Shown in pieces: positions 9,940 through 52,027 of a stretch of 64,000 nt of DNA; position 1 is the stretch's first letter; each line of letters opens with the position of its first letter. The notes under the pieces were generated by a model. It worked only from the letters and a program-made list of their open reading frames with translations. It was not told the origin of the DNA and searched no databases. Origin of the DNA: Cenarchaeum sp. (GTDB lineage Archaea > Thermoproteota > Nitrososphaeria > Nitrososphaerales > Nitrosopumilaceae); contig OZ242221.1 of the NCBI GenBank assembly GCA_965206845.1, forward strand, positions 704,001 through 768,000. Direction: 5' to 3'. Position numbers and translations under genes: made by a program.

Positions 9940-11004
9940 TGTATTGTAACAAAACTATGTCCTCCCCAGATCAGACGCACTCTGCGCGAATTTATTAGGT
10001 TACACTATCCAAGACGCCTGATGCCGGTCAAGCTGGATGACGACAAAATCAAGTACGTCATTCGCGAGAAGGAGAAGGAGAAGGGGACCCTCAACGCCAC
10101 AATAGCTGAAAGCATGAAGATCAGCTCACGACATGTGCGACGCCTTTGGGCCAAGTACAGGAGTACCGGCTCGTTGCCGACGATCAGCAGTGGCGGCCGA
10201 CCTGCCACCAAGACAATATCTGATGAGGAAGTCGAGATGGTGCTGGCCGAGTGCAGGAGAGGCTGTTCGGGGGTGGGACGGGTCACCAAGGCATTGGCGG
10301 ACAAAAACATAAGCGGCCGCACCGTATACAACATAATGAAAAAACATGGGCTGGTGGAGTCGTGCCCCGCAAAGGCAAAAAAACGCAAATGGGTGAGATT
10401 TGAGCGACAGTACTCTAACGCCATGTGGCATACGGACTGGCATGTCATGAAGGACTTCCGCGTGAGGGATCTGAACCTGATCACGTACCTGGACGATGCC
10501 TCGCGATGCGTCACCGGATACGGCGTGTTCAAAGAAGCAACCGGCCTGAATGCCGTGGAGGTGCTCAGGCAGGCAATTCTGGCGTTTGGCACCCCGGCAT
10601 CCATCCTGTCGGACAACGGATCCTGCTTTGTGGGCGTGCGAAGCGGCACGCCGAAGGGAACATGGACGCCTACTATCTTTGAGAGCGAGCTTCTGGATCG
10701 CGGCATACAGCTGATAAACTCAAGGCCGTACCATCCCCAGACCAACGGTAAGCTGGAGAGGTTCCACAGGACACTGGAGACCGAGGTGGGGCGGCACGAC
10801 AGTTTGGATGACTTCGTCACGTACTACAACGAGAGGCGGCTGCATTGGTCGCTTGACATAGACAACCACCAGACGCCGCTCAAGGCGTTCCATGATAAGG
10901 CGACGTATGAAACTATAAGAGTAGACAATCCAAACTGGATGGAGGTTGACATCCATGGATGACCGGCGGACAAAGGGGGGAGGACATAGTTTTGTTACAA
11001 TAGA
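9940..11004 (+). mobile_element. IS481-family insertion sequence
   Basis: 26-bp perfect TIR TATTGTAACAAAACTATGTCCTCCCC; 15-bp TSD GGAAACCGCAAATTT at 9925-9939 and 11006-11020. Confidence 0.92.
10021..10962 (+). CDS. IS481-family DDE transposase (rve integrase core)
   Basis: N-terminal HTH, WHTDW, LDDASR, SDNGSCF, HPQTNGKLERFHRT, YYNERRLH. Confidence 0.92.
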   Translation: MPVKLDDDKIKYVIREKEKEKGTLNATIAESMKISSRHVRRLWAKYRSTGSLPTISSGGRPATKTISDEEVEMVLAECRRGCSGVGRVTKALADKNISGRTVYNIMKKHGLVESCPAKAKKRKWVRFERQYSNAMWHTDWHVMKDFRVRDLNLITYLDDASRCVTGYGVFKEATGLNAVEVLRQAILAFGTPASILSDNGSCFVGVRSGTPKGTWTPTIFESELLDRGIQLINSRPYHPQTNGKLERFHRTLETEVGRHDSLDDFVTYYNERRLHWSLDIDNHQTPLKAFHDKATYETIRVDNPNWMEVDIHG

Positions 11005-11260: not shown

Positions 11261-11352
11261 GTACACACTCAGGTCCCGCTCGAACCTAGGCACGGTTTTG
11301 CGAGACGCGACGCGGTTTTGTGCCTAGAAGGATCGCCGGCCTGAGTACATAC
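11261..11352. mobile_element. 92-bp MITE, copy 1
   Basis: Differs by 1 nt from 29095-29186; ends GTACACACTCAGG/CCTGAGTACATAC; TSD TGTTCGTA. Confidence 0.92.
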
Positions 11353-13715: not shown

Positions 13716-14640
13716 TCTCTATTGTAGATATGTTTCTCTGCTTGCCGTCCTCTGACATCAGGAAATCTGACGCAATCCGCACATCTTTGATATAGTACCC
13801 CACGGTGTCCATTCTCTTTACTATCATCTGTGATACATCGACTGCCTGTGTGATTTTTTTGCCCCTAGCCTTTATTGTTACTGTCGGGTTGGATGCAATC
13901 TGTGTAAGCGTTGCATGTACGTATGTCATAATCGGCTTGCTGCCCACAAAGATAATGTCACGTCGTGGGGCAGTTTTTGCTACAGCTTCTGGCTGCGGCT
14001 CTACAGCCTTGGCTGCGGCTGGTGCCTCTGCTGCCGGCGCTTCTGCTGCTACGGGTGCCTCTGCGGCTGGCGCTTCTGCCATTGGGGGTTCCTCTGCGGC
14101 CGGTGCTTCTGCTGCTACGGGTGCTTCAGCTACTGGTTCTGCTGCCGGCGCTTCTGCCATTGGGGGTTCCTCTGCGGCCGGTGCTTCTGCTGCTACGGGT
14201 GCCTCTGCGGCTGGCGCTTCTGCCATTGGGGGTTCCTCTGCGGCCGGTGCTTCTGCTGCTACGGGTGCTTCAGCTACTGGTTCTGCTGCCGGCGCTTCTG
14301 CCATTGGGGGTTCCTCTGCGGCCGGTGCTTCTGCTGCTACGGGTGCTTCAGCTACTGGTTCTGCTGCCGGCGCTTCTGCCATTGGGGGTTCCTCTACGGG
14401 TGATTCTGACGGGGCTTCAGCTACTGGTTCTTCAGATGCGGGTGCCTCTTCTGCGGCTGGTTCTTCAGTTACTGGTTCTGCGGCCGGTGTTTCTTCTGCG
14501 GCCGATGCCTGCTGTGCAGGTTGCTCCGACTCGGGCGACCATGAATCAGAGACATCATCTAGATCATTTTGTGTTTCCTGACTTTTTTGAAATTCCGACA
14601 GTATTTCTTCAGCGTCTTTTAGTCTTTCTTGCACGTTCAA
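13696..14640 (-). CDS. Alba-family nucleic-acid-binding protein with long Ala/Glu/Pro-rich N-terminal repeat extension
   Basis: C-terminal Alba domain IFVGSKPIMTYV..IKARGKKITQAVDV..NISTIEI. Confidence 0.88.
   Translation of the reverse strand: MNVQERLKDAEEILSEFQKSQETQNDLDDVSDSWSPESEQPAQQASAAEETPAAEPVTEEPAAEEAPASEEPVAEAPSESPVEEPPMAEAPAAEPVAEAPVAAEAPAAEEPPMAEAPAAEPVAEAPVAAEAPAAEEPPMAEAPAAEAPVAAEAPAAEEPPMAEAPAAEPVAEAPVAAEAPAAEEPPMAEAPAAEAPVAAEAPAAEAPAAAKAVEPQPEAVAKTAPRRDIIFVGSKPIMTYVHATLTQIASNPTVTIKARGKKITQAVDVSQMIVKRMDTVGYYIKDVRIASDFLMSEDGKQRNISTIEIDITKD
14020..14395 (-). repeat. Coding tandem repeat (78/66-nt units, EEPPMAEAPAA(EPVA)EAPVAAEAPAA, about 5 copies)
   Basis: Near-identical repeats of gcttctgccattgggggttcctctgcggccggtgcttctgctgctacgggtgc; coordinates approximate. 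Confidence 0.9.
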
Positions 14641-14948
14641 AATCTTCCTGTAGACTAGACCATTATCTTTTATTTAATTGATAGAGTACAAATCAGCTAC
14701 GTAACATCCAGAAAATAATATACCCAGTTCGCGATATGCCAAAGAGAGCAAGTAGAGGACGCACCTAAATCATGAGACCCGACAGATCAAAGCGAACCAC
14801 AGGCTAGGAAGGCCAGAATATCTGCCTGAGTGGCAGGCAGTTCGCATTCGTCCACCCTTTTGACAAGGTATACCGTCGAATAAAAATGCGAGATCACCAC
14901 AGCGAGAAACAGGGAATTGGCCATCTGACTTGAACAATGTTTGCCCTG

Positions 14949-16079
14949 TAGCGAAAAGTTCATTGATCAGAACAGCCCAGACAGACCATGAAATACAAGC
15001 AGATGCTCAAGATTCGCAAGATTGAGAAGGATCCTCAGGTGCGAGACAGGATAATGCTGAACGTGATGGTGAAAAGGGACGGAATGAGCGTGACCAGGGC
15101 CGCGCGCTTTCTGGGCATGGCCCCGTCATGGGGAGTCAAGTGGCACAACCGGTACCTGAAGGAGGGCACTGCAGGCCTGCAGACTCGCACCCGCTCAGGC
15201 CGCCCACCGAGGATCTCAGGCGAGACCCTGAAGGCCGTTAAAAAAAAGTAAAAAAGACGGTGTACCTGACGGCAGAGGACCTGCGCGATATCATTCGCGA
15301 CGGTTCCGGCATAGAGTACATGACGAAGTATACGATATCGTACGCGCGCTTCCTGCTGCGCAGCTGGGGATTCACCAGGAAGGTTCCGATGGGACGGCAC
15401 GTGAAGAGAGCAAGCAGGCAGAAGATCGCGTGGTTCCGCAAGAAGCTGGGGCCGCTGATAGAGGAGAGGGTGAGGGCCGGCTACACGGCATGTGTGCAGG
15501 ACGAGGCGATATGCGTAGCCGACGCGCGGCTCAGGAAGGGCGTCTACACGCCCAAGGGGGTCCGCGGCGTCTACACGTACACGGGATCGCACTCCAAGAC
15601 CATCGTGTTCGGCCTGATCACGCTGGACGGGGAGGGGTTCTTCCAGAGATACGACTCCTTTACCGGGAAGGAGTTTGTCGAGTTCCTGAAGGCCGCATGC
15701 GAAAGGTTCGGGAAGATCCTGATGATAACCGACGGCGCGCCGCAGCACAGGTCGAAATTCGTCAGGGAGGAGATCGGGCGCCTGGACGGCGTGGAGCTGC
15801 AGTTTCTGCCGCCTGGCTGCCCGGATCTGAACGCGATTGAGGAGGTGTGGCTCCAGATGAAACACGCGATCTTGGACGTGCCGTACGTCCGGTTCAGCTC
15901 CATGTGCAGCGACATCGACAAGTGGCTGAGATCGTCCCTGCCAAAACTTGACATCGAAAGGTACCTCTACAGAAAAGCATAGGCAGGCGCCTGCAGGCGC
16001 ACAGGGGATCGTGCGCGCGCAGGTCCGGAAACGGTAAACGGCCGCCCCACGACCCTTCACGGATCTGAACGAACCCGTA
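14949..16079 (+). mobile_element. IS630-family insertion sequence (boundaries uncertain)
   Basis: Split transposase; candidate TA dinucleotides at 14949 and 16078, but the inverted ends match poorly. Confidence 0.6.
14988..15982 (+). CDS. IS630 transposase, two ORFs joined by a probable -1 frameshift
   Basis: ORF1 has an HTH (RSGRPP); ORF2 has DDE motifs (QDEA, TDGAPQH, PDLNAIEEVW); slippery A_AAA_AAG at 15242-15248 just before the ORF1 stop. Confidence 0.88.
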
Positions 16080-16085
16080 TTTTGG

Positions 16086-16241
16086 GACAAGAGACATGAT
16101 CCGCAATTAAGAATCGGGTCTTCGATGCCCATAATCTTACAGATGTGCGCTCCAAAGCATGCAACTTTCGTATGATTATGCCAAAGATCGTGCTCTAATG
16201 TGCCTGCGTGCTAATTACGAATCACATCTAAGAATAACAAG
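16086..16241. repeat. ~150-bp palindromic repeat, copy 2 (MITE-like)
   Basis: 144 bp identical to 9431-9574, same orientation. Confidence 0.85.
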
Positions 16242-27069: not shown

Positions 27070-28845
27070 CTATCTTGTCTCATCAACGCAGAACGAGACC
27101 ACGGCGGACGATGCCGCATCCCGGGACAGGGCAAAGTCCAGGGCGGATGCCATCCTCTCGCTGTCAGGCTCCGCTCCGGCAACAGTTCCTGCAAACACAG
27201 AGAAGATCCTGATCCTGGACTTGAGGACATCGCTGAGCTCCTGGTTGACCGTGGCGGTGAACGGGCGCAGCGCCCCGCGGAACACCTCTATCTGCCCGCG
27301 GCGTATGCCAGAGACCCTGCCTGCCGGCATGTCCGGACCCACTATCACAACAGAGCCTGTCGCATCCTTGAACAGCCGCGGGTCTCTGCCTCCCCCGGGC
27401 ACAAAGTACTCCAGGGCGCTCTGGGCCACGGCCGCCGTGCTGGTGATGAACCTGTCTACCAGTCCGTCCCACTGGGATCTTGACAGCCCCACAAGCTTTG
27501 GGAACTCGGGCAGGTTGCCGGTCATGTGAACCACGCCAGCCACCGGTCCCAGTTTTGCGCCCGCGGTGTTAAGCCACCTCAGGATCTCATCGGCGGATGT
27601 GGTGTCCACTACATGTGAGTGAAACTTGTTGGAGATGGACTCGCGATACTCCTGGGGGGTGTCCCCGGACACAAGACATACCGCCTTGCCTCCGCTTTGT
27701 TCTATGTGTGATGCCAGAAACTCCGCCCTCTTTACGTCCGCATCGTCTGCTGCCTGTATGGTAAGGACCACGGCCTTGCCAGCAAGGTCTGGCCGGTGCA
27801 CCGACGGGGCCGCCGCCCCGATGTGCGGCTTGACCGGATAAAACACCCTGTCCCCTGGAACCACCTTGCCGTTGAGTATCGCCGCCATGTCGTCATCACA
27901 CAGATCCAGCACCGTCCGGGCAACCTGCTCTTGGGACAGGAACTGCCTGTCAGCAATCATATGGGATGTGTTTCGCTGAATCTTCTCTGCAATTGCCTGG
28001 ATCTTGTTCAGCAGTCTGGCCAGTATCTGCGTCAGCTCGCCAGCGCTCCTGCCCGTGGACTCGGCCATGCCCTCTGCGGCCTTGGCAATTCCCTGCTCCA
28101 CAACATCAGGGCTCTCCCCCAGCAGACCGACTATCTGCCCGTTGGCCGCGTCCACCTGCTCCGGACTCAGATCCTCAAAGCCGCCAACCCTCATAAACTC
28201 CGAGGCGGCCTTGGGGTAGACGGTCTTGTAGATGCGATCCGAGTGCACCGGCCCGGGGTTTGTGGCAATGGAGATTATCCCCCTGTCTGCAAGCTCCCAA
28301 GACATGGCCTCTGCCAGCCTGTTCTTGGCTCCCTGGGATGCTGTGTACGGGCTACGGAACCTGTAGGGCCTCTGCTCCAGCGGCCTCTCCTCCGTGAAGA
28401 ATGTAGATATCGTGATTATCTTTCCGCCCTTGGCCATTACGTCCAGGGCCCGAACCGAGGTCCAGAAGGTGCCAGTAAGATGGATGCCCACGGTGCTCCC
28501 AAACTCGTCAAGTGGGGCGCTGGCAAAGCAGGTCACCGGACCCGAGACGCCGGCATTATTTACCACGCAGTCCACCGTGATGCCGTCGTCCCTGATTGCG
28601 TCAAACATGCGGTTGACGTTCTCCTCATCGGCCACATCAACTCCGGAGAAGAGCCTGACGGAGGCTCCGCTTCCCACACTGGAGATTATCCCGTTTAGCA
28701 TTCCGGCAGTATCCTCCAGCGGTCCTCGCCTTCTTCCCAAGAGTATGACCGAGGCGCCTCCCTCAACAAATTTTTTGGCGATGGCCTGGCCGATTCCCGT
28801 ACCGCTGCCGGTAACCAACACAGTCTTGCCTTGAAACTTTAACAT
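27070..28845 (-). CDS. Two-domain short-chain dehydrogenase/reductase
   Basis: TGSGTGIG, NNAGVSGP; degenerate second SDR-like half. Confidence 0.85.
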   Translation of the reverse strand: MLKFQGKTVLVTGSGTGIGQAIAKKFVEGGASVILLGRRRGPLEDTAGMLNGIISSVGSGASVRLFSGVDVADEENVNRMFDAIRDDGITVDCVVNNAGVSGPVTCFASAPLDEFGSTVGIHLTGTFWTSVRALDVMAKGGKIITISTFFTEERPLEQRPYRFRSPYTASQGAKNRLAEAMSWELADRGIISIATNPGPVHSDRIYKTVYPKAASEFMRVGGFEDLSPEQVDAANGQIVGLLGESPDVVEQGIAKAAEGMAESTGRSAGELTQILARLLNKIQAIAEKIQRNTSHMIADRQFLSQEQVARTVLDLCDDDMAAILNGKVVPGDRVFYPVKPHIGAAAPSVHRPDLAGKAVVLTIQAADDADVKRAEFLASHIEQSGGKAVCLVSGDTPQEYRESISNKFHSHVVDTTSADEILRWLNTAGAKLGPVAGVVHMTGNLPEFPKLVGLSRSQWDGLVDRFITSTAAVAQSALEYFVPGGGRDPRLFKDATGSVVIVGPDMPAGRVSGIRRGQIEVFRGALRPFTATVNQELSDVLKSRIRIFSVFAGTVAGAEPDSERMASALDFALSRDAASSAVVSFCVDETR

Positions 28846-29094: not shown

Positions 29095-29186
29095 GTACAC
29101 ACTCAGGTCCCGCTCGAACCTAGGCACGGTTTTGCGAGACGCGACGCGGTTTTGTGCCTAGAAGGATCGCCGACCTGAGTACATAC
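29095..29186. mobile_element. 92-bp MITE, copy 2
   Basis: TSD GACTGCAT at 29087-29094 and 29187-29194; near-identical to 11261-11352. Confidence 0.92.
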
Positions 29187-42823: not shown

Positions 42824-43944
42824 CACTGCGGCACCCCCAGGGTGTTGCCCACCCCCACCACTAGAACCGAGCCGCCCTCCGGGGCGGCCTCACGGATCAT
42901 CTCACGAACCTGGTGGCTCACATCGTCGGCCCGCAGCGCGACATCCTTTGTCATCAGCGTGATGGCCTCTCCGACCGTCTGCTTTACCACAATGGCATAG
43001 ATCGGAATGCCGTGCTTTGTCGCAGCCTCCTCGATCTGGAACCGTTCCGTGCCGATTCCCCCTATGGCAGCCCCAAAGCCGCGGGAGATCGTTGCCGACT
43101 CCTCGCCCTCCATCCTCATGGCGGCATCGATCATGATCACCGCATCGACCTTGTCCTGGGAGATTACATGCTCGACGGCGTCTCCCGGACGGCCCACAGA
43201 CGACAGCGGGCCCCTGGCCTTTAAGAGGTGGATGCGCCTCCCGTCCATCTCGGTCCGGGCCCAGACGGTCTGAAACGCCGCCTCCTTCTTCTCCAGATTC
43301 AGCATCATCCTGCCCACTATCATGGGTCCGATTCCGTCGCCCACAGGCTGTCCCAGCTTGAATACCGGCGCGGCGTCCCTCAGGGCCTTGGCCTCCTCCA
43401 TTATAAAGGGAAGTATCATCTGGAGAGGCAGAATCATTGGAAAGTTCTTCTGCTTTTTTGCGGTCAGATACAGGTGGTTGACAATCCTGTAGACCAGGTG
43501 CAGTGAGGATGCAATCTCCACAAGGGTCTGGATCTTTGACTGCGCCAGCTCGTCCAGGCTCGGATCAAGCTCCCGGATCTGCGCCCTTGTGTGATCGTCT
43601 CTGGAGCGCACCAAGTGCCGAACCTTGGGCACCATGCCGGCCGGATCCATGTCTACAGGCATTATGCTAAAGTAGTCAATGATGGTCCTGATGCGGGACG
43701 AGGGATCCGAGGCCGTCTTCACGTTCTTACTGATGTAATCCATCAGCTCGCTCTCTGACTCGTCCCGGTATATCTTCAGCTTGGTTACGTGCTTTTTGAC
43801 CTGGTTGGCCGAGATGTACAGCTGGATCTGCTGGCCGTAGAAGACGAAGAAGATTATTGGAAGGATCCACACCAGCATCATAAGAGGGCTGGTATCATCG
43901 CCGAAGCTAAAGAACTCCTCAAAGTCGGTAAAATCCACCGACAT
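42823..43944 (-). CDS. DUF1512-family membrane-anchored protein
   Basis: PVDMDP.G, PVGDGIGP, KA.GP..VGR.G, IDAA...EGE, VGVGNT.G. Confidence 0.85.
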   Translation of the reverse strand: MSVDFTDFEEFFSFGDDTSPLMMLVWILPIIFFVFYGQQIQLYISANQVKKHVTKLKIYRDESESELMDYISKNVKTASDPSSRIRTIIDYFSIMPVDMDPAGMVPKVRHLVRSRDDHTRAQIRELDPSLDELAQSKIQTLVEIASSLHLVYRIVNHLYLTAKKQKNFPMILPLQMILPFIMEEAKALRDAAPVFKLGQPVGDGIGPMIVGRMMLNLEKKEAAFQTVWARTEMDGRRIHLLKARGPLSSVGRPGDAVEHVISQDKVDAVIMIDAAMRMEGEESATISRGFGAAIGGIGTERFQIEEAATKHGIPIYAIVVKQTVGEAITLMTKDVALRADDVSHQVREMIREAAPEGGSVLVVGVGNTLGVPQ

Positions 43945-44141
43945 CTGCTGCCCGCAATTCCAAATTAAACGCTTCGATATTTTTTGCCGCGCAGCGGTTT
44001 TAGGAACCACTCCGCGATCCAAGAACCCCGGCGGCGCCGGCCACCTGTCGCATCCGGTCAGGCCCAAAGGCGCCCCACAGCGTGTACGCCGGTGCCCGGA
44101 TAAGAGAGGAGCCGGCCCGATATCCTTTGGGGGTTTAAAAA

Positions 44142-46072
44142 GGGAATTATATACTTCGGTAGGCATGACCACGCGCCTCCCGCGGATGGGGTTTTTGTTT
44201 GGATACCTTCACATGGCATCCGCTCCCATCCGGGAGCCAGTAACCTGCCACCCCCGGATGGCCATGACGGTTCGGACTGTCTGCATGGTCTGCATGGTAT
44301 TGTCGCGGTGTTTTTATGCGCGCTTGGCATTTGCATGCGGTAATGAGACCCATCATGGCGGCCGCGACAGCAACAGTGTTAGCGGCGACGGCAACCGCAA
44401 CGGCAACCGAGCCGGCGCCAAAAAAGTGGTCAAGGCGCCCAATGGAGGGCACCATGGTGCGCACCATAAAGGTGGACTTTGACCAGTCGGCCGAGCTGTC
44501 AGATTTGATATCCCGCCGCATGGACCAGCAGAGGTGGGCCTTCAACATGGCCGTCCGCGAGAAGCTGAACGACCCGAGAACGACAAAGTATGACCTCAAC
44601 AAGATGCTCACCAAATGGAGGAATGAGAAGAAGTGGCTCGTCCATGACAAGGACGCGCTGGCCGCAGGACGCAAGGAGGCCTGTAACAACAGGGTGCAGA
44701 GGACCGGGCTTCGCCAGGGCCTGGACGCGGTGGAGAAGTTCATGATATCCAACGGCAGGAAGCGCCGCAACAAGTCGGTGTGGAAGTACCTGGCCAAGCT
44801 CTATCGGGAAAGGGAGGCGAGGAAGGCCGCCAAGATGTCACGCAACAGTGGGGGCGGCGATGGCGGCGCCCAAAATGAGGCAAGCGGCGCCGACGCTGGC
44901 GCAAGCCTGCCGTCAAACAAGTGGAGCAGGAAAAATAACAAGTGGCGCCGCAGGGACACCCTGTTCAAGAGGAAGGGGAAAATGTGGTCCCTGTCGGTGT
45001 TCGAGAAGCCCGTATACAAGGGCGGCAACACGGTCATGCTCCCCGGTATAGGCACTGTAAGGGTGCACGGCGACGTTGAGGATCTGGACATGCGCCCCTT
45101 CCAGCTCGTGGAGACGACCAAGAAAACAACCAAGCGCACCAAAGATCACCACAAGACTTACCGCCTCCACATCCAGGTTGAAACCAAGGCACCAGAGCCG
45201 TCCGAACATGCGGTCATCAGGGGCGTGGACATGGGCATAGTCCACGGCGCCGCCACCGTCGACCTTGGCACCGGCCATCACAAGTTCCACGACCTCCCAA
45301 ATGGCTGCAGGAGAGCCAAGAACGACGACATATCGAAGATGTACTCGGAGCTCTCGCAAAAGAGGGGAGGGAGAGGCAACCGCAGGATCAGGCAGGACAC
45401 CAATGAAGGCGCCGACGGCAGGAACAACACGAGCGGCAACAACAGGAACAAAACAAGGAAGCCCAAGTCCCGCGGCTACAGGGAGCTCCAGAGGAAGATC
45501 CGGAAGAAGCGCGAGAAGATCGCCAACTGCCAGACCAACTGGGAGAGGCACGCGTCCAAGGAGATTGCGGACGGCGCCGGCACGGTGGCCATCGAGGACC
45601 TGAAAGTCAAGAACATGACCGCTAGGGCCAAGGGCAAGGGGAGCTCCGCCAAGACGGGGCTCAACCGCGAGATGGCGTACTCAAGGCCAGGGACTTTCCA
45701 GCGCCAGATCATGGGCGCCTGTGAGAACGCGGGAGTCATCGTCATAACGGTGGACCCCAAGGGCACCAGCATAACATGCCACAAGTGCGGCCACAGTGAC
45801 AAGGAATCCAGGATATCCCAAGGGAGGTTCCGCTGCGCCAATGACAAGTGTTACAATGACGTCAACGCCGACATAAACGCGGCGCATAACATTGCCTCCA
45901 AGGCGACAGCCATGGCGGCAGGGCGGCGGGGATCGTCGTCCCAAGGCGCGAGACTCCGGCGCGGGATTGCTCCCGCGCGTTCCGCAAACAGCACGCGAGA
46001 AGCAAGCGTGGGAGGGATTGCAAGAGCGCCAGAAAAAGGCAGGGGTACTGCGTACCCATGTATATAATTCCC
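44142..46072 (+). mobile_element. Non-autonomous TIR element carrying a TnpB-like nuclease
   Basis: TIR GGGAATTATATAC (13-bp perfect, 21/24 when extended); direct repeat TTTAAAAA at 44134-44141 and 46073-46080; no transposase inside. Confidence 0.85.
44343..46067 (+). CDS. tnpB: TnpB/Cas12f-like RNA-guided endonuclease
   Basis: RTIKV..R..FN N-terminus, RuvC-I GVDMG, RuvC-II IEDL, Zn finger TS.TC..CG..F.C...C, RuvC-III NADINAAHNI; start could be anywhere from 44316 to 44454. Confidence 0.92.
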   Translation: MRPIMAAATATVLAATATATATEPAPKKWSRRPMEGTMVRTIKVDFDQSAELSDLISRRMDQQRWAFNMAVREKLNDPRTTKYDLNKMLTKWRNEKKWLVHDKDALAAGRKEACNNRVQRTGLRQGLDAVEKFMISNGRKRRNKSVWKYLAKLYREREARKAAKMSRNSGGGDGGAQNEASGADAGASLPSNKWSRKNNKWRRRDTLFKRKGKMWSLSVFEKPVYKGGNTVMLPGIGTVRVHGDVEDLDMRPFQLVETTKKTTKRTKDHHKTYRLHIQVETKAPEPSEHAVIRGVDMGIVHGAATVDLGTGHHKFHDLPNGCRRAKNDDISKMYSELSQKRGGRGNRRIRQDTNEGADGRNNTSGNNRNKTRKPKSRGYRELQRKIRKKREKIANCQTNWERHASKEIADGAGTVAIEDLKVKNMTARAKGKGSSAKTGLNREMAYSRPGTFQRQIMGACENAGVIVITVDPKGTSITCHKCGHSDKESRISQGRFRCANDKCYNDVNADINAAHNIASKATAMAAGRRGSSSQGARLRRGIAPARSANSTREASVGGIARAPEKGRGTAYPCI

Positions 46073-46092
46073 TTTAAAAAGAACCGCTTTTA
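45900..46092 (+). ncRNA. Putative TnpB omega/reRNA (scaffold plus about 20-nt flank-derived guide)
   Basis: Conserved with 51089-51250; covarying hairpins; expected position at the tnpB 3' end. Confidence 0.65.
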
Positions 46093-46120
46093 TTATAGCT
46101 AATATAGAAGTTTTTTATTA

Positions 46121-46681
46121 ATGCCACAGACTAAACCAATTGTAAGCGTAGAGAATGTAGTTGCATCCGCATCAGTAGATCAGAAGATGGATCTAAACGA
46201 GATCACAAGAACATTCCTGGATGTCGAGTACCATCCAGACCAGTTTCCCGGGCTAGTCTTCAGGTTGAGCAACCCCAAGACCGCCACGCTGATCTTTACC
46301 TCTGGCAAGATGGTGTGCACCGGCTCAAAGTCCGAAGAGATGGCCAGAAAGGCGGTAAAGACCGTCGTTCAGAAGCTCCGAAAGGGCGGCGTCAGCGTAA
46401 AGAAGGATGCCGTGGTGGAGATACAGAACATCGTAGCGTCCATCAACCTAGGCGGAAAGATCCACCTAGAGCAGGCCGCAAGAACCCTGCCCCGGAGCAT
46501 GTACGAGCCGGAGCAGTTTCCTGGCCTGATTCACAGAATGCTGGATCCCAAGACGGTAATACTGCTGTTCTCCTCTGGAAAGCTGGTGTGTACCGGAGCA
46601 AAGAAGGAGCCCGATGTGTACAGATCCGTCAACAACCTGCATGCCCTCCTAGAAGAGAAGGATCTCATGATCTACGAGTAA
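46121..46681 (+). CDS. tbp: TATA-box-binding protein
   Basis: Two repeats: ENVVAS..YHPDQFPGL..SGKMVCTG and QNIVAS..YEPEQFPGL..SGKLVCTG. Confidence 0.97.
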   Translation: MPQTKPIVSVENVVASASVDQKMDLNEITRTFLDVEYHPDQFPGLVFRLSNPKTATLIFTSGKMVCTGSKSEEMARKAVKTVVQKLRKGGVSVKKDAVVEIQNIVASINLGGKIHLEQAARTLPRSMYEPEQFPGLIHRMLDPKTVILLFSSGKLVCTGAKKEPDVYRSVNNLHALLEEKDLMIYE

Positions 46682-46938
46682 TCACCTACTCCCCCCCATT
46701 TTGCACGATGTCCTGATACCTGCCCATGCGCGGAACCGGGATGCCATGGTGCGGCCTTGTGCATGAGGGCCGCATCGAGCCTGCCGGGATTCGCCGGATG
46801 CAGAACCGTCCGCGGCACCGCGCCAGGCGCAAGAGCGCCCCTGAGACGCGCGCTCAAGGTACGCAGACGGGAACGGATGCGACCCCGCGCCGCGCCAACA
46901 GCGAATATTTTATATGGTTTCAACCGATCACGTAGGCA

Positions 46939-47637
46939 ATGGTAAACCCCCGCGCGTGGCTTGCAGAGTCGATAGCCACGTACGCACTGGTCTTCTTTGG
47001 GCCGCTCTCGATAATACTGGCAGTGGCGCAGTTCGGCGAGGGGCTTACCACCATGTCGGTGCTCTTCATCTCACTGGCACACGGGGGCATCATCGGCGTG
47101 ATGATCTACACCTTTGGGCACATATCGGGAGCCCACATCAACCCCGCAGTTACCATACCCATGATGGTTACAAGAAAGATCGGCATCTCAGACGGGATAG
47201 GCTACATCGTCTTTCAGATTATCGGCGCGCTGGCGGCAGCCGCAACCCTGAAGGCAATACTGCCGGAACTGGGAGCCGCGGTAAACTTTGGAACACAGGG
47301 AGGACCAAGCGAGATATTGAACAAGAGCGTTGGTTCGGGATTTGCAGTGGAGGCCGTTTTGACGTTCTTCCTGGTGCTGGTAATATTCATGACTGCTGTG
47401 CACAAGAGGGCATCTCCGGGATGGCACGGGTTTGCCATCGGCGGAATGGTGTTCCTGATTCACCTGATAGCGGTTCCGCTTACCGGGGCATCGGTCAATC
47501 CCGCCAGGACGTTTGGTCCGGCAGTAATATCCGGCTTTTGGGAGTTTCACTGGCTGTACTGGGCCGCGCCCATTCTGGGCGGAGTCGTGGCAGGCCTGCT
47601 CATGAACTACATCTACGTCAAGAAGGAAGAGCAGTAG
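46939..47637 (+). CDS. Aquaporin (MIP family)
   Basis: SGAHINPAVT and GASVNPARTFGP. Confidence 0.95.
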   Translation: MVNPRAWLAESIATYALVFFGPLSIILAVAQFGEGLTTMSVLFISLAHGGIIGVMIYTFGHISGAHINPAVTIPMMVTRKIGISDGIGYIVFQIIGALAAAATLKAILPELGAAVNFGTQGGPSEILNKSVGSGFAVEAVLTFFLVLVIFMTAVHKRASPGWHGFAIGGMVFLIHLIAVPLTGASVNPARTFGPAVISGFWEFHWLYWAAPILGGVVAGLLMNYIYVKKEEQ

Positions 47638-47657
47638 GCTGGTTGCCGGTTCTGCAC

Positions 47658-48059
47658 ATGAGCACCACTCCAGACCGCCTGTTGCGCTCTGAGCATGATG
47701 CTCTGAGGGGTGCTGTAGACAGGCTGTTGGGGGAGACCGGAAGGCTCCCCGTATCTGATGTGGTCGGGGCGTACTACCTGGCCATAAGCCTGGGAGCCGC
47801 AGTTGAGGCGGCGCGCAGGGCAGGCATCGCGGCGCACGAGTCCCGGGATCTGTTGGATAGGTTCAACCGGATCCTGCACCCGCGGGTGGCCCGGGAGCTC
47901 TCAGATGCCATACAGGAGCAGATCACAAGGCTGCAGACGCAGAGCCACGAGAAGACAAGGAAGGAGACAGAGTGCGAGGCAGGCGCCTACTCGAGGCTCC
48001 GCGAGATGATGAGCACCCGGGAGTTTGTCAGGCAGTATGGGCATGGAATGGACGTCTGA
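47658..48059 (+). CDS. Hypothetical helical protein
   Basis: MSTTPDRLL..LREMMSTREFV.QY; operon-like position. Confidence 0.65.
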   Translation: MSTTPDRLLRSEHDALRGAVDRLLGETGRLPVSDVVGAYYLAISLGAAVEAARRAGIAAHESRDLLDRFNRILHPRVARELSDAIQEQITRLQTQSHEKTRKETECEAGAYSRLREMMSTREFVRQYGHGMDV

Positions 48060-48852
48060 TCTGGTCGGGATCAAAAAGGAGCTGGCGCGGCGCAGCCCAG
48101 GAGGCCTGCTGGAAGCCGTCCCCGAATCGGAGTACGGGGGCCTGACGGCGCGCCGTCTGGAGTGTATCCACAGGTTTGCCCGGAGCAACCCCATCTACCA
48201 CACCTCGCACCGGGAGACCATATCCGGGGTGCCAGTCCGCGTATACGAGGGTGACTGCAACAGGTACTGGCTCAACAGCATACAGCACGATTCCAGCCGG
48301 GCGCCCTTCTCGCCTACCTGGATGGCATCCGCATATGCGATGGCATCGGTGGCCCGGTCCCTGGGATTTCTGGAGGTTGTGGATGTAGGATCCGGGGACG
48401 GTCGGATTGCCCACTTTGCCAGAGTGTGCGGCATGGATGCCTGCGGCATAGAACTTGACGAAATGCTGACAGACCTGCAGAAGAGGATTGCAGACTCCAC
48501 GGGGATCAGCTACAGGACAGAGTGCGCCGATGCCGCAGCACTCGACTACGGCAGGCTTGGGCTGACGCGTCCGGCGTTCTTTATCGGCGGCCTTGCCCAG
48601 ATGGGCGGCAGTGAGCTGGCAGGAGCTGTCATAGACGGGATTGGCAGGGTCCCTGGCCTTCTGGGGAGGTCGTGCGTGGTACTTGCGGGAACGCACTCGG
48701 CCAAGTACGCGCCGGCGCCGCCGGCAGGCTGGGGCTCGACGATAAGATCCAGGGGGATGGACGTGATCAGGACAATAGAGCTTCCCACCGCCTGGACCAT
48801 GCACGAGCCGCAGGAGACGCCGTACATCTACTGCAGGTTTGCGCCTACGTAG
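48025..48852 (+). CDS. SAM-dependent methyltransferase-like protein
   Basis: VVDVGSGDGR motif I; GIELD. Confidence 0.8.
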   Translation: MSGSMGMEWTSDLVGIKKELARRSPGGLLEAVPESEYGGLTARRLECIHRFARSNPIYHTSHRETISGVPVRVYEGDCNRYWLNSIQHDSSRAPFSPTWMASAYAMASVARSLGFLEVVDVGSGDGRIAHFARVCGMDACGIELDEMLTDLQKRIADSTGISYRTECADAAALDYGRLGLTRPAFFIGGLAQMGGSELAGAVIDGIGRVPGLLGRSCVVLAGTHSAKYAPAPPAGWGSTIRSRGMDVIRTIELPTAWTMHEPQETPYIYCRFAPT

Positions 48853-49028
48853 GCCGGGGAATGGCAACTCCGGGGAGATGAGCCTGCCGGCACGGGGCAG
48901 CCGACTGCCTGTAGGCGCTCCGGGAATGCCCCCGGCGGGGCCGCGATCAGTCAGTTAGTTTGTGGCGATATCCTGCAGGATGCCACCTGATAGAAATTCA
49001 AATTAAGGCCGTGCTTGGTAGCGCTGTT

Positions 49029-49103
49029 GGGCTCGTTGCATAGCATGGATAGTGCGAACGCTTGCGGAGCGTTAGGTCGAGGGTTCGAATCCCTTCGGGC
49101 CCA
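49029..49103 (+). tRNA. tRNA-Arg(GCG)
   Basis: GGGCTCG..AACGC-TTGCGGA-GCGTT..GGTTCGAATCC..CGGGCCC A. Confidence 0.95.
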
Positions 49104-49272
49104 CTCTTTGGATCGCGGCGGCGATGTCACCGCGCGCAGACCGGGCGATTAGGGAGTCGGATTGTAGACGCGCCGCATCCGGGCTGATCCCTAGTCAGAG
49201 ATCATCAGCCGAGTTTGCAGGAGAGCCAGATCTTCCAAAAGGCATATTAGATGATTTTTCTGTTGTTTTTTC

Positions 49273-49857
49273 ATGGGCGATTCCAAGGAACCTCACGTAG
49301 TGGGAGTCGAGGTGCTAAAGCAGAACGGTCTGGACGTGGATGCCCTGATAAGGGAACTGGTAAGCAACGCGGCCGTCGAGTTTGCGGCATACTATTACTT
49401 TACGAACCTGCGCTCCTTCTGTACCGGAATGGAGGGTGAAGGAATCAAGGGAGTGATAGAGGACGCCAGACTCGAGGATCTCAGCCACTTCGAGTCCTGC
49501 ATAGACAGGATATACCAGCTGGGGGGGGAGTTTCCCACCGACATTACCAAGTTTGTAGAGCGGGCCAACGCAGAGTTCCTGCAGTCGGACAGAAAGACCA
49601 CGCTGAACCAGATCCTGGACAAGTGCCTCAGAGCCGAACAGGGGGCCATCATAAACTGGAACAAGATATGCAGAATGACCCACGGAAAAGATCCCGTGAC
49701 GTACGAGATTGCGTCACACATACTGGCAGAGGAGATAGAGCACGAGTCCTGGTTTCTGGAGATCCTGCACGGCAGGCCGTCAGGACACATGCGGAGAAGG
49801 TATTCAGGCGAGCGGCCACACACCGGCAAGCATTCCAGGTCACTGGGAGATCTCTAG
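49273..49857 (+). CDS. Dps-like (DpsL) ferritin-family protein
   Basis: E..AYYY, EDARLED..HFE, AE..AI, EEIEHE.WF.E. Confidence 0.9.
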   Translation: MGDSKEPHVVGVEVLKQNGLDVDALIRELVSNAAVEFAAYYYFTNLRSFCTGMEGEGIKGVIEDARLEDLSHFESCIDRIYQLGGEFPTDITKFVERANAEFLQSDRKTTLNQILDKCLRAEQGAIINWNKICRMTHGKDPVTYEIASHILAEEIEHESWFLEILHGRPSGHMRRRYSGERPHTGKHSRSLGDL

Positions 49858-49906
49858 CAATTGTCCGGTATGAATAGTTTTTATCTAACTACATTTACAC
49901 TAACCT

Positions 49907-50287
49907 GTGAGCCAAAAATACAGCACTCTAGAGGAGCCATGCCGCGAGATTCTCAAGCTTCCGAAGATCAGGTTTGCCGGCGTCATCGACAGAATGGGCA
50001 GGCGGATTGCCGGCGGCTTTGGAAAGGATGTCGTACCACTCGTTACCGACCGTGACAACCGGGGAATGTACATACAGCTAGCACTGGAGTATCTGATGAG
50101 AAGGGACTTTGACAGCAATCTGGGACAGATCGACTACATAGCATCCCGTCGCGAAAAAGTCACAATGATAACCATTCCTATAGAGAATGGCATAGTACTG
50201 ATAAGCGCCGAGCGGGATGTCGACATCGAAGAGACAATCGCGCAGGTAAACTCTACGTTTACGCTGCTTCCCCACGTCAGGCCCTAG
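49907..50287 (+). CDS. DUF6659-like (roadblock-like) protein
   Basis: C..IL..IRFAGVID.MGR..GG..MRRDFD..LG..Y..RR.KV. Confidence 0.8.
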   Translation: MSQKYSTLEEPCREILKLPKIRFAGVIDRMGRRIAGGFGKDVVPLVTDRDNRGMYIQLALEYLMRRDFDSNLGQIDYIASRREKVTMITIPIENGIVLISAERDVDIEETIAQVNSTFTLLPHVRP

Positions 50288-50386
50288 GCGCAGACACGAT
50301 CGGCTGATCTTCTGGGCTGCTTTGGCAGGCGCGTATGCCACGGGTCAGGTGTCAAAAGAATGCCCTGCACACTGCCTGCCCAGGCA

Positions 50387-50503
50387 TCACCTCCGAAACA
50401 TGACAAATATGCGGGTTCCCACAAGGATGCCTACGGCGGCGATGATGGCCAGCATCACCAGATACCGGGCCGGGTCGTCCATGCCAGTCCATAGGATGTC
50501 CAC
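50387..50503 (-). CDS. Small membrane peptide (38 aa, not in ORF track)
   Basis: MDILWTGMDDPARYLVMLAIIAAVGILVGTRIFVMFRR: single TM with basic end. Confidence 0.5.
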   Translation of the reverse strand: MDILWTGMDDPARYLVMLAIIAAVGILVGTRIFVMFRR

Positions 50504-50884
50504 AGATATAGGTCAGATCCCCGGCATGTCAGCAGGATCTGCGCCCGTGTCTTGATGTGGACATCTTGCTGACCCGCAGGTAGCTGCGCTGCCCCATCAG
50601 TCGGTGAATTTTTTACAGCTGCACCCCGTAACCAGGCACCTGCCGGTGCCCCCCAGGTGCGATGCGGAGAAATGAAAGCACCCGATCTCCATGTTTCTGC
50701 ACTGCACAGGAACCAGAATGTACGGCATCTTTTAGGTTGTTCTGTTTTGGCAGCGTCGCACCATCTCAAGGCACGCAGCTGTGGCGATCTGCAGACCGGA
50801 AGCCGACAGAAGAGAGCCGCCACAGGCTCCGACATGCCGCAGACGGGACATCCGGCAGACGGTCAGCCGGCCGCACCGGGCATC

Positions 50885-51058
50885 TCAGCCGTAAATGAGG
50901 CAGTGTTCGCACTCGCAGCTGGGCTGTGCGCTTGACTTTGCAAGGCATTTTTTGTGCTGGCCCGCCTGGCACTGGACACAGACCTCGTCCAAGCTATCCA
51001 CCTCGGAGTACTTTTTTGACTGATCAAAGCCAAACCCTCCATCCTGAGGTCCTACCAT
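50885..51058 (-). CDS. Small Cys-rich Zn-binding protein
   Basis: CVQC..H..C...CECEHC; TATA-like TTAAAATA about 25 nt upstream of the ATG. Confidence 0.65.
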   Translation of the reverse strand: MVGPQDGGFGFDQSKKYSEVDSLDEVCVQCQAGQHKKCLAKSSAQPSCECEHCLIYG

Positions 51059-51088
51059 ACATCCACTGGCGAGCACCTACTATTTTAA

Positions 51089-51389
51089 GGGAATTATATA
51101 CAAAAGTACACGGTACTTCTGCCTTTTCTTGGCGTTCTTGCAATCCCTCCAACGCTTGGTTCTCGCGTTTGGTTCACGGAGCGTCCGGGAGCAATCCCGG
51201 CCTGGAATCTCGCGCCTTGGGACGACAATCCCTGCCGCCTTGACGGCAATGTTGTGCGCCGCGTTTATGTCGGCGTTGATGTCGTTCTTGCACCTGTCGT
51301 TCGTGCAGTGAAACTTTCCCTGCGACACCCGGGAGTTTTCATCCCTGTGCCCGCATTTGTGGCATGTCGTGCTGGTGCCCTTGGGGTCC
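51089..51389 (-). mobile_element. 5'-truncated copy of the TnpB-TIR element (Zn finger/RuvC-III fragment, scaffold and right TIR)
   Basis: DPKGTS.TCHKCGH..SQG.F.C.ND.C.ND.NADINAAHNIA matches the full copy; ends in GTATATAATTCCC. Confidence 0.9.
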
Positions 51390-51624
51390 CATGTGTGGTA
51401 CCAGGTTCGCAGTTCTGCCTCCCTCCGGCCGCGCCGCTGCAAGTGCGCTGTCCATCAAAGAAAGGGCTCACAGACTTGACGCGGCTCATGGAGCCGCTAC
51501 GTACGCGCGAAGCGGATCGTGATCCTGCGCAGGAGGTCGCGTCATACGCCTGTCCGGTATGCGCATGCAGGAGAATCTCTGCGCCCGACCCGTAGCGGAG
51601 CATGGCGCGCCTCAAAGTCGTCCG

Positions 51625-51762
51625 CTAGATCTCATCCTTGTCTTGGTCGTTGTCCCAGAGATGCATCGTTCCCCGTATCATAAAGGAACCCACAATTATG
51701 GCCACAAGGCCGCCCACTACAAAGACAAAGAACCTTCCCACATCACCTACAGAGGCCAACAC
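51625..51762 (-). CDS. Small membrane protein (start uncertain)
   Basis: FFVFVVGGLVAIIVGSFMI TM segment with acidic tail. Confidence 0.5.
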   Translation of the reverse strand: MLASVGDVGRFFVFVVGGLVAIIVGSFMIRGTMHLWDNDQDKDEI

Positions 51763-52027
51763 ACATGGATCCCCTACCGTGTAATCAAGTCTTTCTATAA
51801 TCCATTGGGTAGGTATTTTTAGCGCAGATATCCCTGGTATGCCATGAGCAAGGCAAAGCGCGTCGCCGCCTGGGTCGGAATACTTGGAGGCGGCATCGGC
51901 TTTTACTTCTTCTACGGATATGTAGCAGAGCTGATGCGCTAGGCCTGCCCGATCCACAGATGGGCCGCGCGGCCGGCACGGGATCCAAGCCGCGGGGTCA
52001 GACTTAACTACCATACGCCGGTGGGTT

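What the first reader, a model, noticed from the sequence alone, without database searches (positions are those of the whole stretch)
45900..46092. Covarying 3' scaffold marks a putative omega RNA whose guide would be the sequence upstream of tbp
After RuvC-III the two copies remain highly similar in DNA but are read in different frames (..RRGSSSQGARL.. versus ..GIVVPRREIP..), so the constraint is on the nucleic acid, not the protein. Compensatory stems: GCGGGA-ttgc-TCCCGC versus CCGGGA-ttgc-TCCCGG, and GGGTAC-tgc-GTACCC versus AAGTAC-cgt-GTACTT; GCC-(7 nt)-GGC is also kept. By analogy with TnpB reRNAs, the guide is the flank TTTAAAAAGAACCGCTTTTA, lying 30-48 nt upstream of the TBP start codon. 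The scaffold would then run through a TIR and the guide would begin with the TSD, an unusual layout.
Basis: partly seen in the sequence, partly recalled or inferred. Interest (0 to 1): 0.75.

Follow-up and report, generated by a model that had tools for sequence, protein, structure and literature searches.

The report
Guide-RNA scaffold of an archaeal TnpB transposon
The last 150 bases of a jumping gene that sits just upstream of the archaeon's TATA-binding-protein gene fold into a conserved RNA shape, most likely the handle of a guide RNA for the element's own TnpB nuclease, and the element unusually has the ends of a cut-and-paste transposon.

Summary
Window 44142-46072 is a 1931-bp element with 13-bp inverted ends and an 8-bp target duplication. 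It carries only a TnpB gene. The genome holds at least 16 diverged copies. Over 17 right ends, six helices in 45922-46060 are 95.7% paired, against 37-52% for slid controls, and nine pairs change compensatorily. Over 55 sequences from three genera, 34 of 38 pairs do. Invariant G·U pairs place the structure on the tnpB strand. Third-codon-position excess stops at about 45893, and the encoded tail is predicted disordered. So the constraint is on nucleic acid.

The best reading is a TnpB omega-RNA scaffold whose guide is the right flank, 46073 to about 46092. No RNA ends or cleavage were shown.

New here:
- The same ends bound IS1595-type DDE transposons in related genomes, so this is a transposase-less TnpB rider on IS1595 ends.
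- The base 5' of the left duplication is G in 13 of 13 copies, and in 23 of 27 overall. This is a TAM-like, orientation-specific mark.

A scaffold running through an inverted end and target duplication is already known for eukaryotic Fanzors.

The parts
44133..44133 (+). G immediately 5' of the left target-site duplication; candidate TAM base
   Evidence: G at this position in 13 of 13 TSD-bearing copies of this genome and in 10 of 14 in other genomes.
44134..44141 (.). Left copy of the 8-bp target-site duplication, TTTAAAAA
   Evidence: Identical 8-mer at 46073-46080.
44142..44154 (+). Left terminal inverted repeat, GGGAATTATATAC
   Evidence: Reverse complement of 46060-46072. It recurs at the ends of all copies.
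44466..46067 (+). tnpB gene, 533 aa from MVRTIKVDF. Catalytic residues D255, E377 and D469, with a C4 zinc finger. The stop codon TAA lies inside the right TIR.
   Evidence: Pfam Cas12f1-like_TNB, E 7.8e-15. Catalytic and zinc-finger residues are conserved in 90 sequences. The AF2 model has pLDDT 85. Foldseek matches Cas12f 8dzj at E 5e-14 and ISDra2 TnpB 8h1j at TMt 0.68.
45921..46072 (+). Candidate omega-RNA scaffold. Helices: H1 45922-28/45934-40; H2 45945-49/46026-30 (long-range); H3 45959-66/45971-78; H4 45980-83/46011-14; H5 45992-96/46006-10; H6 46040-48/46052-60. A single-stranded A-rich linker and the TIR follow. The 5' end of the RNA is not known; nucleotide-level constraint starts at about 45893.
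   Evidence: Covariation. Codon-position switch. Covariance model match at 45903-46072, 200 bits.
46060..46072 (+). Right terminal inverted repeat, GTATATAATTCCC; it would be the 3' end of the scaffold
   Evidence: All copies end sharply here and the flanks are unrelated beyond it.
46073..46080 (.). Right copy of the 8-bp target-site duplication
46073..46092 (+). Inferred guide: the TSD plus the next 12 nt. It overlaps the upstream edge of the conserved tbp core promoter.
   Evidence: Inferred from the known TnpB and Fanzor layout; not shown here. The promoter block from AAAAGGAAC..CTTTTAT(A/T)TATAG is conserved in the same-genus genome G001.
46121..46681 (+). TATA-binding protein gene; the neighbour, not part of the element
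   Evidence: Pfam TBP, E 1.5e-58.
51089..51395 (-). Second copy in the window: a 5'-truncated remnant holding the last ~60 tnpB codons, the scaffold and the right TIR
   Evidence: Covariance model match at 51089-51258 (-), 182 bits.

Best explanation
Window 44142-46072 is one of at least 16 diverged copies of a transposase-less insertion sequence. Its only gene is a catalytically intact TnpB RNA-guided nuclease.

The last ~150 nt of the element (about 45921-46072) overlap the dispensable, disordered 3' tail of tnpB and run through the right inverted repeat. They encode the scaffold of the element's omega RNA (reRNA). Transcription continues over the right end, so the 3' part of the RNA, about 16-20 nt from 46073, is the guide. 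The guide therefore starts with the 8-bp target duplication and goes on into the tbp promoter flank.

The TnpB-RNA complex would recognise the uninterrupted target, that is G, then the TSD, then the flank. The G 5' of the duplication would be at least part of the TAM. The complex would cut that empty allele so that repair copies the element back. It would spare the filled site for two reasons. The right-hand copy of the target is preceded by ..TTCCC rather than G. The left-hand copy matches the guide for only 8-9 nt.

Movement itself is most likely done in trans by an IS1595-family DDE transposase. That transposase's own elements carry the same 13-bp ends and make 8-bp duplications.

Shown: the structure and its covariation, its strand, the element boundaries, the TIR and TSD, the G(-1) bias, the TnpB fold and catalytic residues, and the shared ends with IS1595 elements.

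Inferred: that the RNA exists, its ends, guide use, the TAM, homing, and trans-mobilisation.
For: 1. Structure. Six helices are 95.7% paired against 37-52% for slid controls. Nine pairs carry compensatory changes in 17 right ends. In 55 distinct sequences from three genera, 34 of 38 pairs carry compensatory changes, pairing is 93.4% against 37-49%, and all five measures are reached by 0 of 500 shuffles. That alignment was fitted to the model and includes 7 partial left-end hits. Distant subfamilies keep the architecture with other letters, for example GGCGC/GCGCC becomes GACAG/CTGTC.

2. Strand. G·U pairs at columns 22-38 and 25-35 are invariant in 17 of 17. They would be C·A on the other strand.

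3. Not protein. There is no third-position excess in the tail. Compensatory changes alter the amino acids. Four of 15 long copies shift frame in the last part. The tail has pLDDT below 50.

4. The structure ends exactly at the element end. Beyond it, 21 flanks are unrelated.

5. TnpB is intact and under purifying selection.

6. Target asymmetry. G at -1 of the left TSD in 13 of 13 copies here. By my arithmetic, with G at about 0.286 of bases, the chance is about 1e-7. Overall the count is 23 of 27. Only 3 of 13 have the mirror-image C after the right TSD. Every right end finishes in C.

7. Partner transposase. TIR-bounded elements with a DDE_Tnp_IS1595 transposase (Pfam E 2.9e-40), the same ends and 8-bp TSDs occur in G115 (L201, L215, L218). 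This genome has one intact homologue (27542-28444) and one decayed homologue lying 54 nt from a perfect TIR (1467214-1467226).

8. The same layout is established experimentally for TnpB and Fanzor (PMC10711439 and PMC13565253, passages read).
Against: - No RNA evidence with ends or strand. The four runs laid were assembled contigs, and two of them are only guessed to be RNA.
- No contig joins the right end to tbp.
- Single-sequence folding is not significantly stable: z = -1.81.
- No Rfam family matches.
- A one-base TAM would be unusually short. Positions -2 to -4 show only a depletion of A.
- Four of 14 TSD-bearing elements in other genomes lack the G, among them all three 1637-bp elements of G302.
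- The terminal hairpin H6 is also present, inverted, at the left end in copies with about 40-bp TIRs. That helix could therefore serve the transposase rather than, or as well as, the RNA.
- Restorative homing is thought to give little benefit to DDE cut-and-paste elements (PMC13565253, passage read).
- In Fanzors the 3' TSD lies in the scaffold, not the guide, so the guide may start only after 46080.
Confidence: 0.72

Rival explanations
1. The conserved right-end sequence is a DNA-level transposition signal. It would consist of subterminal binding sites or DNA hairpins read by the IS1595-type transposase, and not an RNA.
For: The 13-bp TIR is nearly invariant across subfamilies whose TnpB has diverged to about 37% identity. 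Hairpin H6 is mirrored at the left end in copies with about 40-bp TIRs. MITE-like derivatives keep the right-end ~100 nt.
Against: Helices H1-H5 occur only at the right end. IS1595 elements with the same TIR have quite different subterminal sequence (..TTAAAATCA) and no scaffold. Invariant G·U pairs and a long-range helix spanning 80 nt fit RNA better than duplex DNA sites. Helix sequences change freely while pairing is kept, which protein-binding sites would not allow.
Confidence: 0.08
2. The structure is a cis-acting part of the tnpB mRNA, such as a 3' stabiliser, a terminator or a translation control element. Alternatively it is the scaffold of a TnpB that no longer uses the flank as a guide, for example a regulatory TldR-like use.
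For: The ORF reads through the whole structure to a stop in the TIR in 11 of 15 copies here, and also in the AT-rich 1637-bp subfamily. Translation and folding must therefore interact. No RNA 3' end has been mapped.
Against: The catalytic triad and zinc finger are intact, unlike exapted inactive TnpBs (PMC10691335, passages read). The family is mobile and multi-copy with fresh TSDs. The orientation-specific G at -1 is what a TAM-linked guide system predicts and has no role in an mRNA element.
Confidence: 0.13
3. The tail after RuvC-III is a functional C-terminal peptide, and the DNA similarity only reflects protein conservation.
For: The frame is kept in 11 of 15 long copies, and a recognisable peptide (..GIAPARS..REPSVGGIARAPEKG..) recurs.
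Against: There is no third-position excess (0.17/0.19/0.15). Paired substitutions change residues, for example GRRGS, GRPGW, GRQGL. The tail is unrelated in sequence in other subfamilies. It is predicted disordered.
Confidence: 0.03

Closest known systems
ISDra2 / ISFba1 TnpB with its omega RNA (reRNA), IS200/IS605 family
   Same: A small RuvC nuclease of the same fold (8h1j TMt 0.68, 8iaz TMt 0.62). A structured RNA region overlaps the 3' end of tnpB and ends at the right transposon end. The guide is expected from the right flank, and a TAM-like mark lies 5' of the left end.
   Different: IS200/IS605 elements have no TIR and no TSD, and they move as single strands by a Y1 TnpA (PMC13565253, passage read). 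This element has 13-bp TIRs and 8-bp TSDs, and its ends are shared with IS1595 DDE elements. The TAM candidate is a single G separated from the element by the TSD. No Rfam family matches.
Fanzor1 (e.g. SfAV) and Fanzor2* reRNAs in eukaryotic and viral cut-and-paste transposons
   Same: A TnpB homologue is the only gene of a non-autonomous TIR/TSD element, and the RNA scaffold runs through the TIR (PMC10711439, passages read). Old copies at about 80% identity still encode intact proteins (PMC3627910, passage read).
   Different: The host is an archaeon. The RuvC-II glutamate E377 lies 61 residues before the zinc finger, which is the canonical TnpB position and not the Fanzor rearrangement (PMC13565253). 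Fanzor TSDs are short and sit in the scaffold. Here the TSD is 8 bp and variable, so it can hardly be scaffold and would be the first 8 nt of the guide.
DDE-transposase-associated TnpB branches (Altae-Tran et al. 2023, PNAS)
   Same: Prokaryotic TnpBs inside elements with inverted terminal repeats. Solo TnpBs are flanked by the same ends as transposase-bearing relatives, and the tnpB 3' end lies within 250 bp of the transposon end (PMC10691335, passages read).
   Different: The main text names only IS630. A later review names ISL2, IS630 and IS1031 (PMC13565253). 'IS1595' does not occur in the PNAS main text. Its supplementary tables could not be read, so this family may be listed there.
IS1595 family insertion sequences and their non-autonomous derivatives
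   Same: Identical 13-bp termini and 8-bp TSDs as elements that encode DDE_Tnp_IS1595 transposases in related genomes.
   Different: No transposase lies inside the element; a TnpB gene and an RNA scaffold take its place. Insertions are oriented with respect to a flanking G. This could not be assessed in the 3 transposase-bearing elements with clean TSDs, which is too few.

Membership tests
TnpB / OMEGA RNA-guided nuclease system | RuvC D-E-D catalytic triad split in three motifs, with a C4 zinc finger between RuvC-II and RuvC-III | tested here: met
   D255, E377, D469, C438, C441, C457 and C462 are invariant or at least 90% conserved in 90 sequences. Pfam PF07282, E 7.8e-15. PDB profile hits to Cas12f and TnpB, E 9e-15.
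TnpB / OMEGA RNA-guided nuclease system | TnpB/Cas12f fold over the full length | tested here: met
   AF2 pLDDT 85, pTM 0.77. Foldseek probability 1.00 to Cas12f 8dzj, ISDra2 TnpB 8h1j and 8exa, ISFba1 TnpB 8iaz and Fanzor2 9b0l.
TnpB / OMEGA RNA-guided nuclease system | Conserved structured non-coding RNA region overlapping the 3' end of tnpB and ending at the right transposon end | tested here: met
   Covarying six-helix structure at 45922-46060, strand-specific, ending at the sharp element boundary.
TnpB / OMEGA RNA-guided nuclease system | The RNA is expressed and carries 16-20 nt of right flank as its guide | tested here: inconclusive
   Only assembled contigs of four runs could be laid. 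One 399-nt contig of a run guessed to be RNA covers 45919-46073 of another copy and runs on for 241 nt. No ends or strand can be read from it.
TnpB / OMEGA RNA-guided nuclease system | RNA-guided, TAM-dependent DNA cleavage | not testable with these tools
   Needs biochemistry or an interference assay.
TnpB / OMEGA RNA-guided nuclease system | Fixed motif (TAM) 5' of the insertion site on the tnpB strand | tested here: inconclusive
   G at -1 of the left TSD in 13 of 13 copies here and 23 of 27 overall. It is a single base, and its recognition by TnpB is not shown.
IS200/IS605 family | No terminal inverted repeats and no target duplication; subterminal hairpins; Y1 TnpA | tested here: not met
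   13-bp TIRs, and 8-bp TSDs in 13 of 16 bounded copies. No other gene lies in the element.
IS607 family | Serine recombinase TnpA; no TIR and no TSD | tested here: not met
   TIR and TSD are present. No second ORF with a family match lies in the element.
IS1595 family (DDE) | Element bounded by TIRs with an 8-bp target duplication (the family's 8-bp value is recalled from ISfinder, not from a call) | tested here: met
   Three transposase-bearing elements with the same ends have 8-bp TSDs.
IS1595 family (DDE) | Encodes a DDE_Tnp_IS1595 transposase | tested here: not met
   None inside the element. Homologues lie elsewhere in the genome, at 27542-28444 (intact) and 1466759-1467160 (decayed, next to a perfect TIR). 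The element is therefore at most a non-autonomous relative.
Fanzor | Eukaryotic or giant-virus host; RuvC-II glutamate moved to about 6 residues before the zinc finger | tested here: not met
   Archaeal genome with a TBP gene, in a family that includes a genome titled Nitrosopumilus sp.. E377 lies 61 residues before C438.
Any Rfam RNA family | Match to a curated covariance model | tested here: not met
   Nothing in 43500-52000 at E up to 1 apart from a tRNA.

The most novel reading that the evidence does not exclude
The TnpB-omega RNA module has been grafted onto IS1595 (Merlin-type) DDE transposon ends in archaea, and the variable 8-bp target duplication is the TAM-proximal seed of the guide, read next to a one-base G TAM. 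Every ribonucleoprotein would then match two places. It would match the empty target in full. It would also match its own left junction over G plus 8-9 nt. That partial match could bind there without cutting and couple RNA-guided recognition to the transposase. The coupling might set insertion orientation, mark the left end for excision, or repress tnpB. If so, this would be a prokaryotic parallel or forerunner of the Fanzor1 arrangement, and it would be a mechanism by which a guide nuclease helps a cut-and-paste element.
Probability: 0.15. Interest if true: 0.85.

Novelty: new variant of a known kind. Interest (0 to 1): 0.55.

Why it matters
How TnpB helps its transposon is worked out only for IS200/IS605 and IS607, which excise without a scar. 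Whether and how it helps DDE cut-and-paste elements is an open point in the field (PMC13565253, passage read).

This family offers a natural test case:
- dozens of diverged but intact TnpB genes;
- a well-defined covarying scaffold;
- sharp ends and clean 8-bp duplications;
- a candidate one-base TAM tied to insertion orientation;
- an identifiable partner transposase family.

It also gives a compact archaeal TnpB, about 490 structured residues, with a defined roughly 150-nt scaffold that could be tried as an editor.

For the organism, the copy in the window sits at the upstream edge of the conserved core promoter of its TATA-binding-protein gene. The inferred guide is complementary to that promoter edge.

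Tried and rejected
- **RNA evidence.** The look-up of sequencing runs listed 14 runs. Four were laid (X1, X2, X3, X6). All are assembled contigs, which show no ends, strand or level. Contigs cover parts of tnpB and tbp. None bridges 46073 to tbp. One X2 contig (RNA only guessed) spans 45919-46073 of another copy and continues 241 nt into a different flank. This is suggestive only.
- **Phage collection:** no match.
- **The search for related loci on genome contigs with the single protein** found nothing. With alignment A1 it gave 24 loci, of which only L054 and L055 carry the TIR. The metagenome scan gave 38 distant TnpB loci, none with the TIR.
- **First AF2 model** from 31 close sequences was unusable, pLDDT 44. 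It was replaced by a 90-sequence alignment.
- **Pseudoknot** between GGGAUU (46012-46019) and the 3' AAUUCCC: possible on paper and used in the single-sequence MFE. It is untestable, because the TIR never varies and the internal partner varies without compensation.
- **GCC-7nt-GGC stem:** rejected.
- **Partner transposase among this genome's repeated IS families.** Ten ORFs were scanned (DDE_Tnp_1, DDE_3/IS630, DDE_Tnp_4, rve), and all these families have other TIRs. The partner came to light only through a 2690-bp TIR-bounded element in G115.
- **Empty tbp allele in the same-genus genome G001:** no synteny to the left of the promoter, so no pre-insertion site could be read.
- **G(-1) control on transposase-bearing elements:** only 3 have clean TSDs, which is too few.
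- **One Pfam call failed** on a mis-framed reference and was not repeated, so six further IS ORFs remain unscanned.
Full report
**What is at the site.**
Window 44142-46072 (+) is a 1931-bp element. It is bounded by GGGAATTATATAC and GTATATAATTCCC and flanked by the direct repeat TTTAAAAA (44134-44141 and 46073-46080). Its single long ORF (44466-46067) is a TnpB:
- Pfam Cas12f1-like_TNB, E 7.8e-15.
- PDB profile hits to Cas12f and TnpB.
- D255, E377, D469 and the four zinc-finger cysteines conserved in a 90-sequence alignment.
- An AF2 model with pLDDT 85 and pTM 0.77.
- Foldseek matches to Cas12f 8dzj (E 5e-14), ISDra2 TnpB 8h1j (TMt 0.68), ISFba1 TnpB 8iaz and mimivirus Fanzor2 9b0l.

The next gene, 48 nt downstream, is tbp. 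The window lies in a complete 1.65-Mb, 57% G+C archaeal genome. One genome of the same family carries the record title Nitrosopumilus sp..

Both stems and both peptide readings are as described. The second copy (51089 to about 51395, minus strand) is only a 5'-truncated remnant, and it has a 20-nt gap just upstream of the scaffold. That gap explains the frame change.

The genome holds many more copies. There are 42 DNA matches. Twenty-one are right-end-like, and 16 are TIR-bounded or long copies at 73-87% identity. All right ends stop at ..AATTCCC, and the flanks beyond are unrelated.

**Is the constraint on nucleic acid?**
In 11 of 15 long copies the tail keeps the window copy's frame and stops at the TAA inside the TIR. 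Four copies shift frame near the end. So the frame argument fails, but the conclusion survives on better evidence:
- Mean pairwise diversity at codon positions 1/2/3 is 0.179/0.139/0.361 in 45173-45894. It is 0.168/0.189/0.146 in 45921-46059 (14 copies).
- In 30-nt steps the third-position excess disappears at about 45893.
- Residues 488-533, encoded by 45927-46064, have pLDDT below 50.

**The structure.**
I aligned 17 right ends: 16 from this genome, leaving out five short or left-end pieces, plus one MAG copy, L054 (alignment A2). RNAalifold and inspection give six helices:
- H1: 45922-28 with 45934-40
- H2: 45945-49 with 46026-30
- H3: 45959-66 with 45971-78
- H4: 45980-83 with 46011-14
- H5: 45992-96 with 46006-10
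- H6: 46040-48 with 46052-60

An A-rich linker lies between H2 and H6, and the TIR follows H6.

The counts are as follows:
- 95.7% of 644 cells are paired, against 37.0-52.3% with partners slid.
- Nine pairs and 43 cells change on both sides.
- The covariation score is 0.239 against 0.112 for shuffles (0 of 500 reach it).
- The two measures that count pairs or pair types were not beyond shuffles on this small set (85 and 179 of 500).
- The pair at columns 27-33 occurs as G-C (8 copies), C-G (6) and A-U (3).
- G·U pairs at columns 22-38 and 25-35 are invariant, which fixes the strand as that of tnpB.

The GCC/GGC pairing is not supported.

A covariance model (R1) finds the motif in 8 of 151 genomes sampled from the family, in 3 of 27 genera. 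On 55 distinct matches, 34 of 38 pairs show compensatory change and pairing is 93.4% against 37-49%. All five measures are reached by 0 of 500 shuffles. Two caveats apply: this alignment is fitted to the model, and seven partial left-end matches were not removed.

AT-rich subfamilies rebuild the same architecture from different letters. Folding energy of the single sequence is not exceptional, and Rfam has no match.

**What kind of element.**
Thirteen of 16 bounded copies have 8-bp duplications. Ten are perfect, two have one mismatch and one has two mismatches. TIRs and TSDs exclude IS200/IS605 and IS607.

No other repeated IS family of this genome shares the ends. The same 13-mer is abundant in related genomes, for example 77 hits against 1 control hit in G115. 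A 2690-bp TIR-bounded element there encodes a DDE_Tnp_IS1595 transposase (Pfam E 2.9e-40) with a methyltransferase-HNH cargo and the TSD CAATTTTA. Two more such elements have 8-bp TSDs.

This genome has an intact homologue (27542-28444, 60% identity, degenerate ends). It also has a decayed homologue 54 nt from a perfect TIR. The TnpB elements are therefore best read as transposase-less riders on IS1595-type ends, moved in trans. That step is inferred.

**A target asymmetry.**
With every copy oriented by tnpB, the base 5' of the left TSD is G in 13 of 13, and the first TSD base is T in 10 and C in 3. The mirror position after the right TSD is C in only 3 of 13.

In other genomes, 14 of the 32 loci examined had a readable TSD. 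Ten of those 14 have the G. The exceptions are three 1637-bp elements of G302 and L170.

A symmetric DDE preference would not fix orientation. A TAM read by TnpB, or selection through TnpB, would. The right end always finishes in C, so the right-hand target copy lacks the G.

**Mechanism.**
In known TnpB and Fanzor systems the guide is the right flank (PMC10711439, PMC13565253 and PMC10691335, passages read). That TnpB processes its own mRNA into the RNA is recalled, not checked here. By analogy, the guide here is 46073 to about 46092. Because the TSD is variable, it is more likely guide than scaffold, unlike the Fanzor case.

Comparison with the same-genus genome shows a conserved tbp promoter block starting about 46076. 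The element therefore sits at the promoter's upstream edge, and the inferred guide overlaps it.

**What is known, and novelty.**
TnpB omega RNAs are established. So are scaffolds that run through a TIR or TSD in Fanzors, and DDE-linked TnpB branches with solo copies.

I found no paper that joins TnpB with thaumarchaeal names. I found none that links TnpB functionally to IS1595: nine papers hold both words, judged from the search listing only. 'IS1595' is absent from the PNAS main text, but its supplements could not be read.

Verdict: a real feature, and a new variant of a known kind.

Noticed in passing
L201 (G115:C1:1770047-1772736) and L218 (G115:C1:1043578-1046414): IS1595-type elements with the same 13-bp ends carry a DNA methyltransferase fused or adjacent to an HNH nuclease as cargo (Pfam N6_N4_Mtase E 1.2e-26, HNH E 6e-14). 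These ends therefore mobilise at least two different nucleic-acid-targeting cargos.
   Followed up: partly
window 44155-44465: The ~310 nt between the left end and the tnpB start are 70-85% conserved among copies. They keep an open alternative frame (..FACGNETH..KAPNGGHH..HHKGGL) in several copies. It is not clear whether this is a promoter or leader, a small ORF, or a second RNA.
   Followed up: no
G000:C1:938659-939364; L151 (G302); G115:C1:658457-658571: MITE-like derivatives of 706 bp, 386 bp and 115 bp are bounded by the same TIRs. The 706-bp one keeps the 3' half of the scaffold.
   Followed up: partly
G000:C1:870565-872715 and L149 (G274): Nested insertions sit inside TnpB elements. In the first, an IS with its own ~19-bp TIRs and a 348-aa ORF whose tail looks like an IS4/IS5-type DDE transposase (judged by eye; the Pfam scan failed) replaces the 5' part of tnpB. 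In the second, ORFs that look like an IS630-type transposase (by eye, not scanned) split tnpB.
   Followed up: partly
L054 (contig titled Dehalococcoidia bacterium MAG): A copy with 72% protein identity and an identical right end lies on a 31-kb contig binned as a bacterium. This is either a mis-binned archaeal contig or transfer between sponge-associated microbes. Its left end lacks the first ~11 nt.
   Followed up: no
window 46076-46120 against L183 (G001): The tbp core promoter block (AAAAAGAACCGCTTTTATTATAG) is conserved in the sister species, but the sequence upstream of it is not syntenic. RNA-library contigs over tbp begin at 46120-46136, which would fit a leaderless or near-leaderless mRNA.
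   Followed up: partly
window 49029-49103: A tRNA gene (Rfam RF00005, 56.8 bits).
   Followed up: no
window 13988-14500: A long array of 33-nt-period direct repeats, rich in GCT/GGT/TCT. It is probably a low-complexity repetitive coding region.
   Followed up: no
window 11261-11352 and 29095-29186; 9431-9586 and 16086-16241: Two pairs of near-identical short repeats: 92 nt at 99% identity, with inverted termini GTACACACTCAGG..CCTGAGTACATAC, and 156 nt at 98%. They are possibly small mobile elements or IS ends. IS copies lie at window 9940-11004 (rve-type) and 14869-16090.
   Followed up: no
whole genome G000: For a 1.65-Mb genome it is very rich in insertion sequences: 121 repeated regions of at least 400 bp at 80% identity or more, falling into about 20 multi-copy families.
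   Followed up: partly
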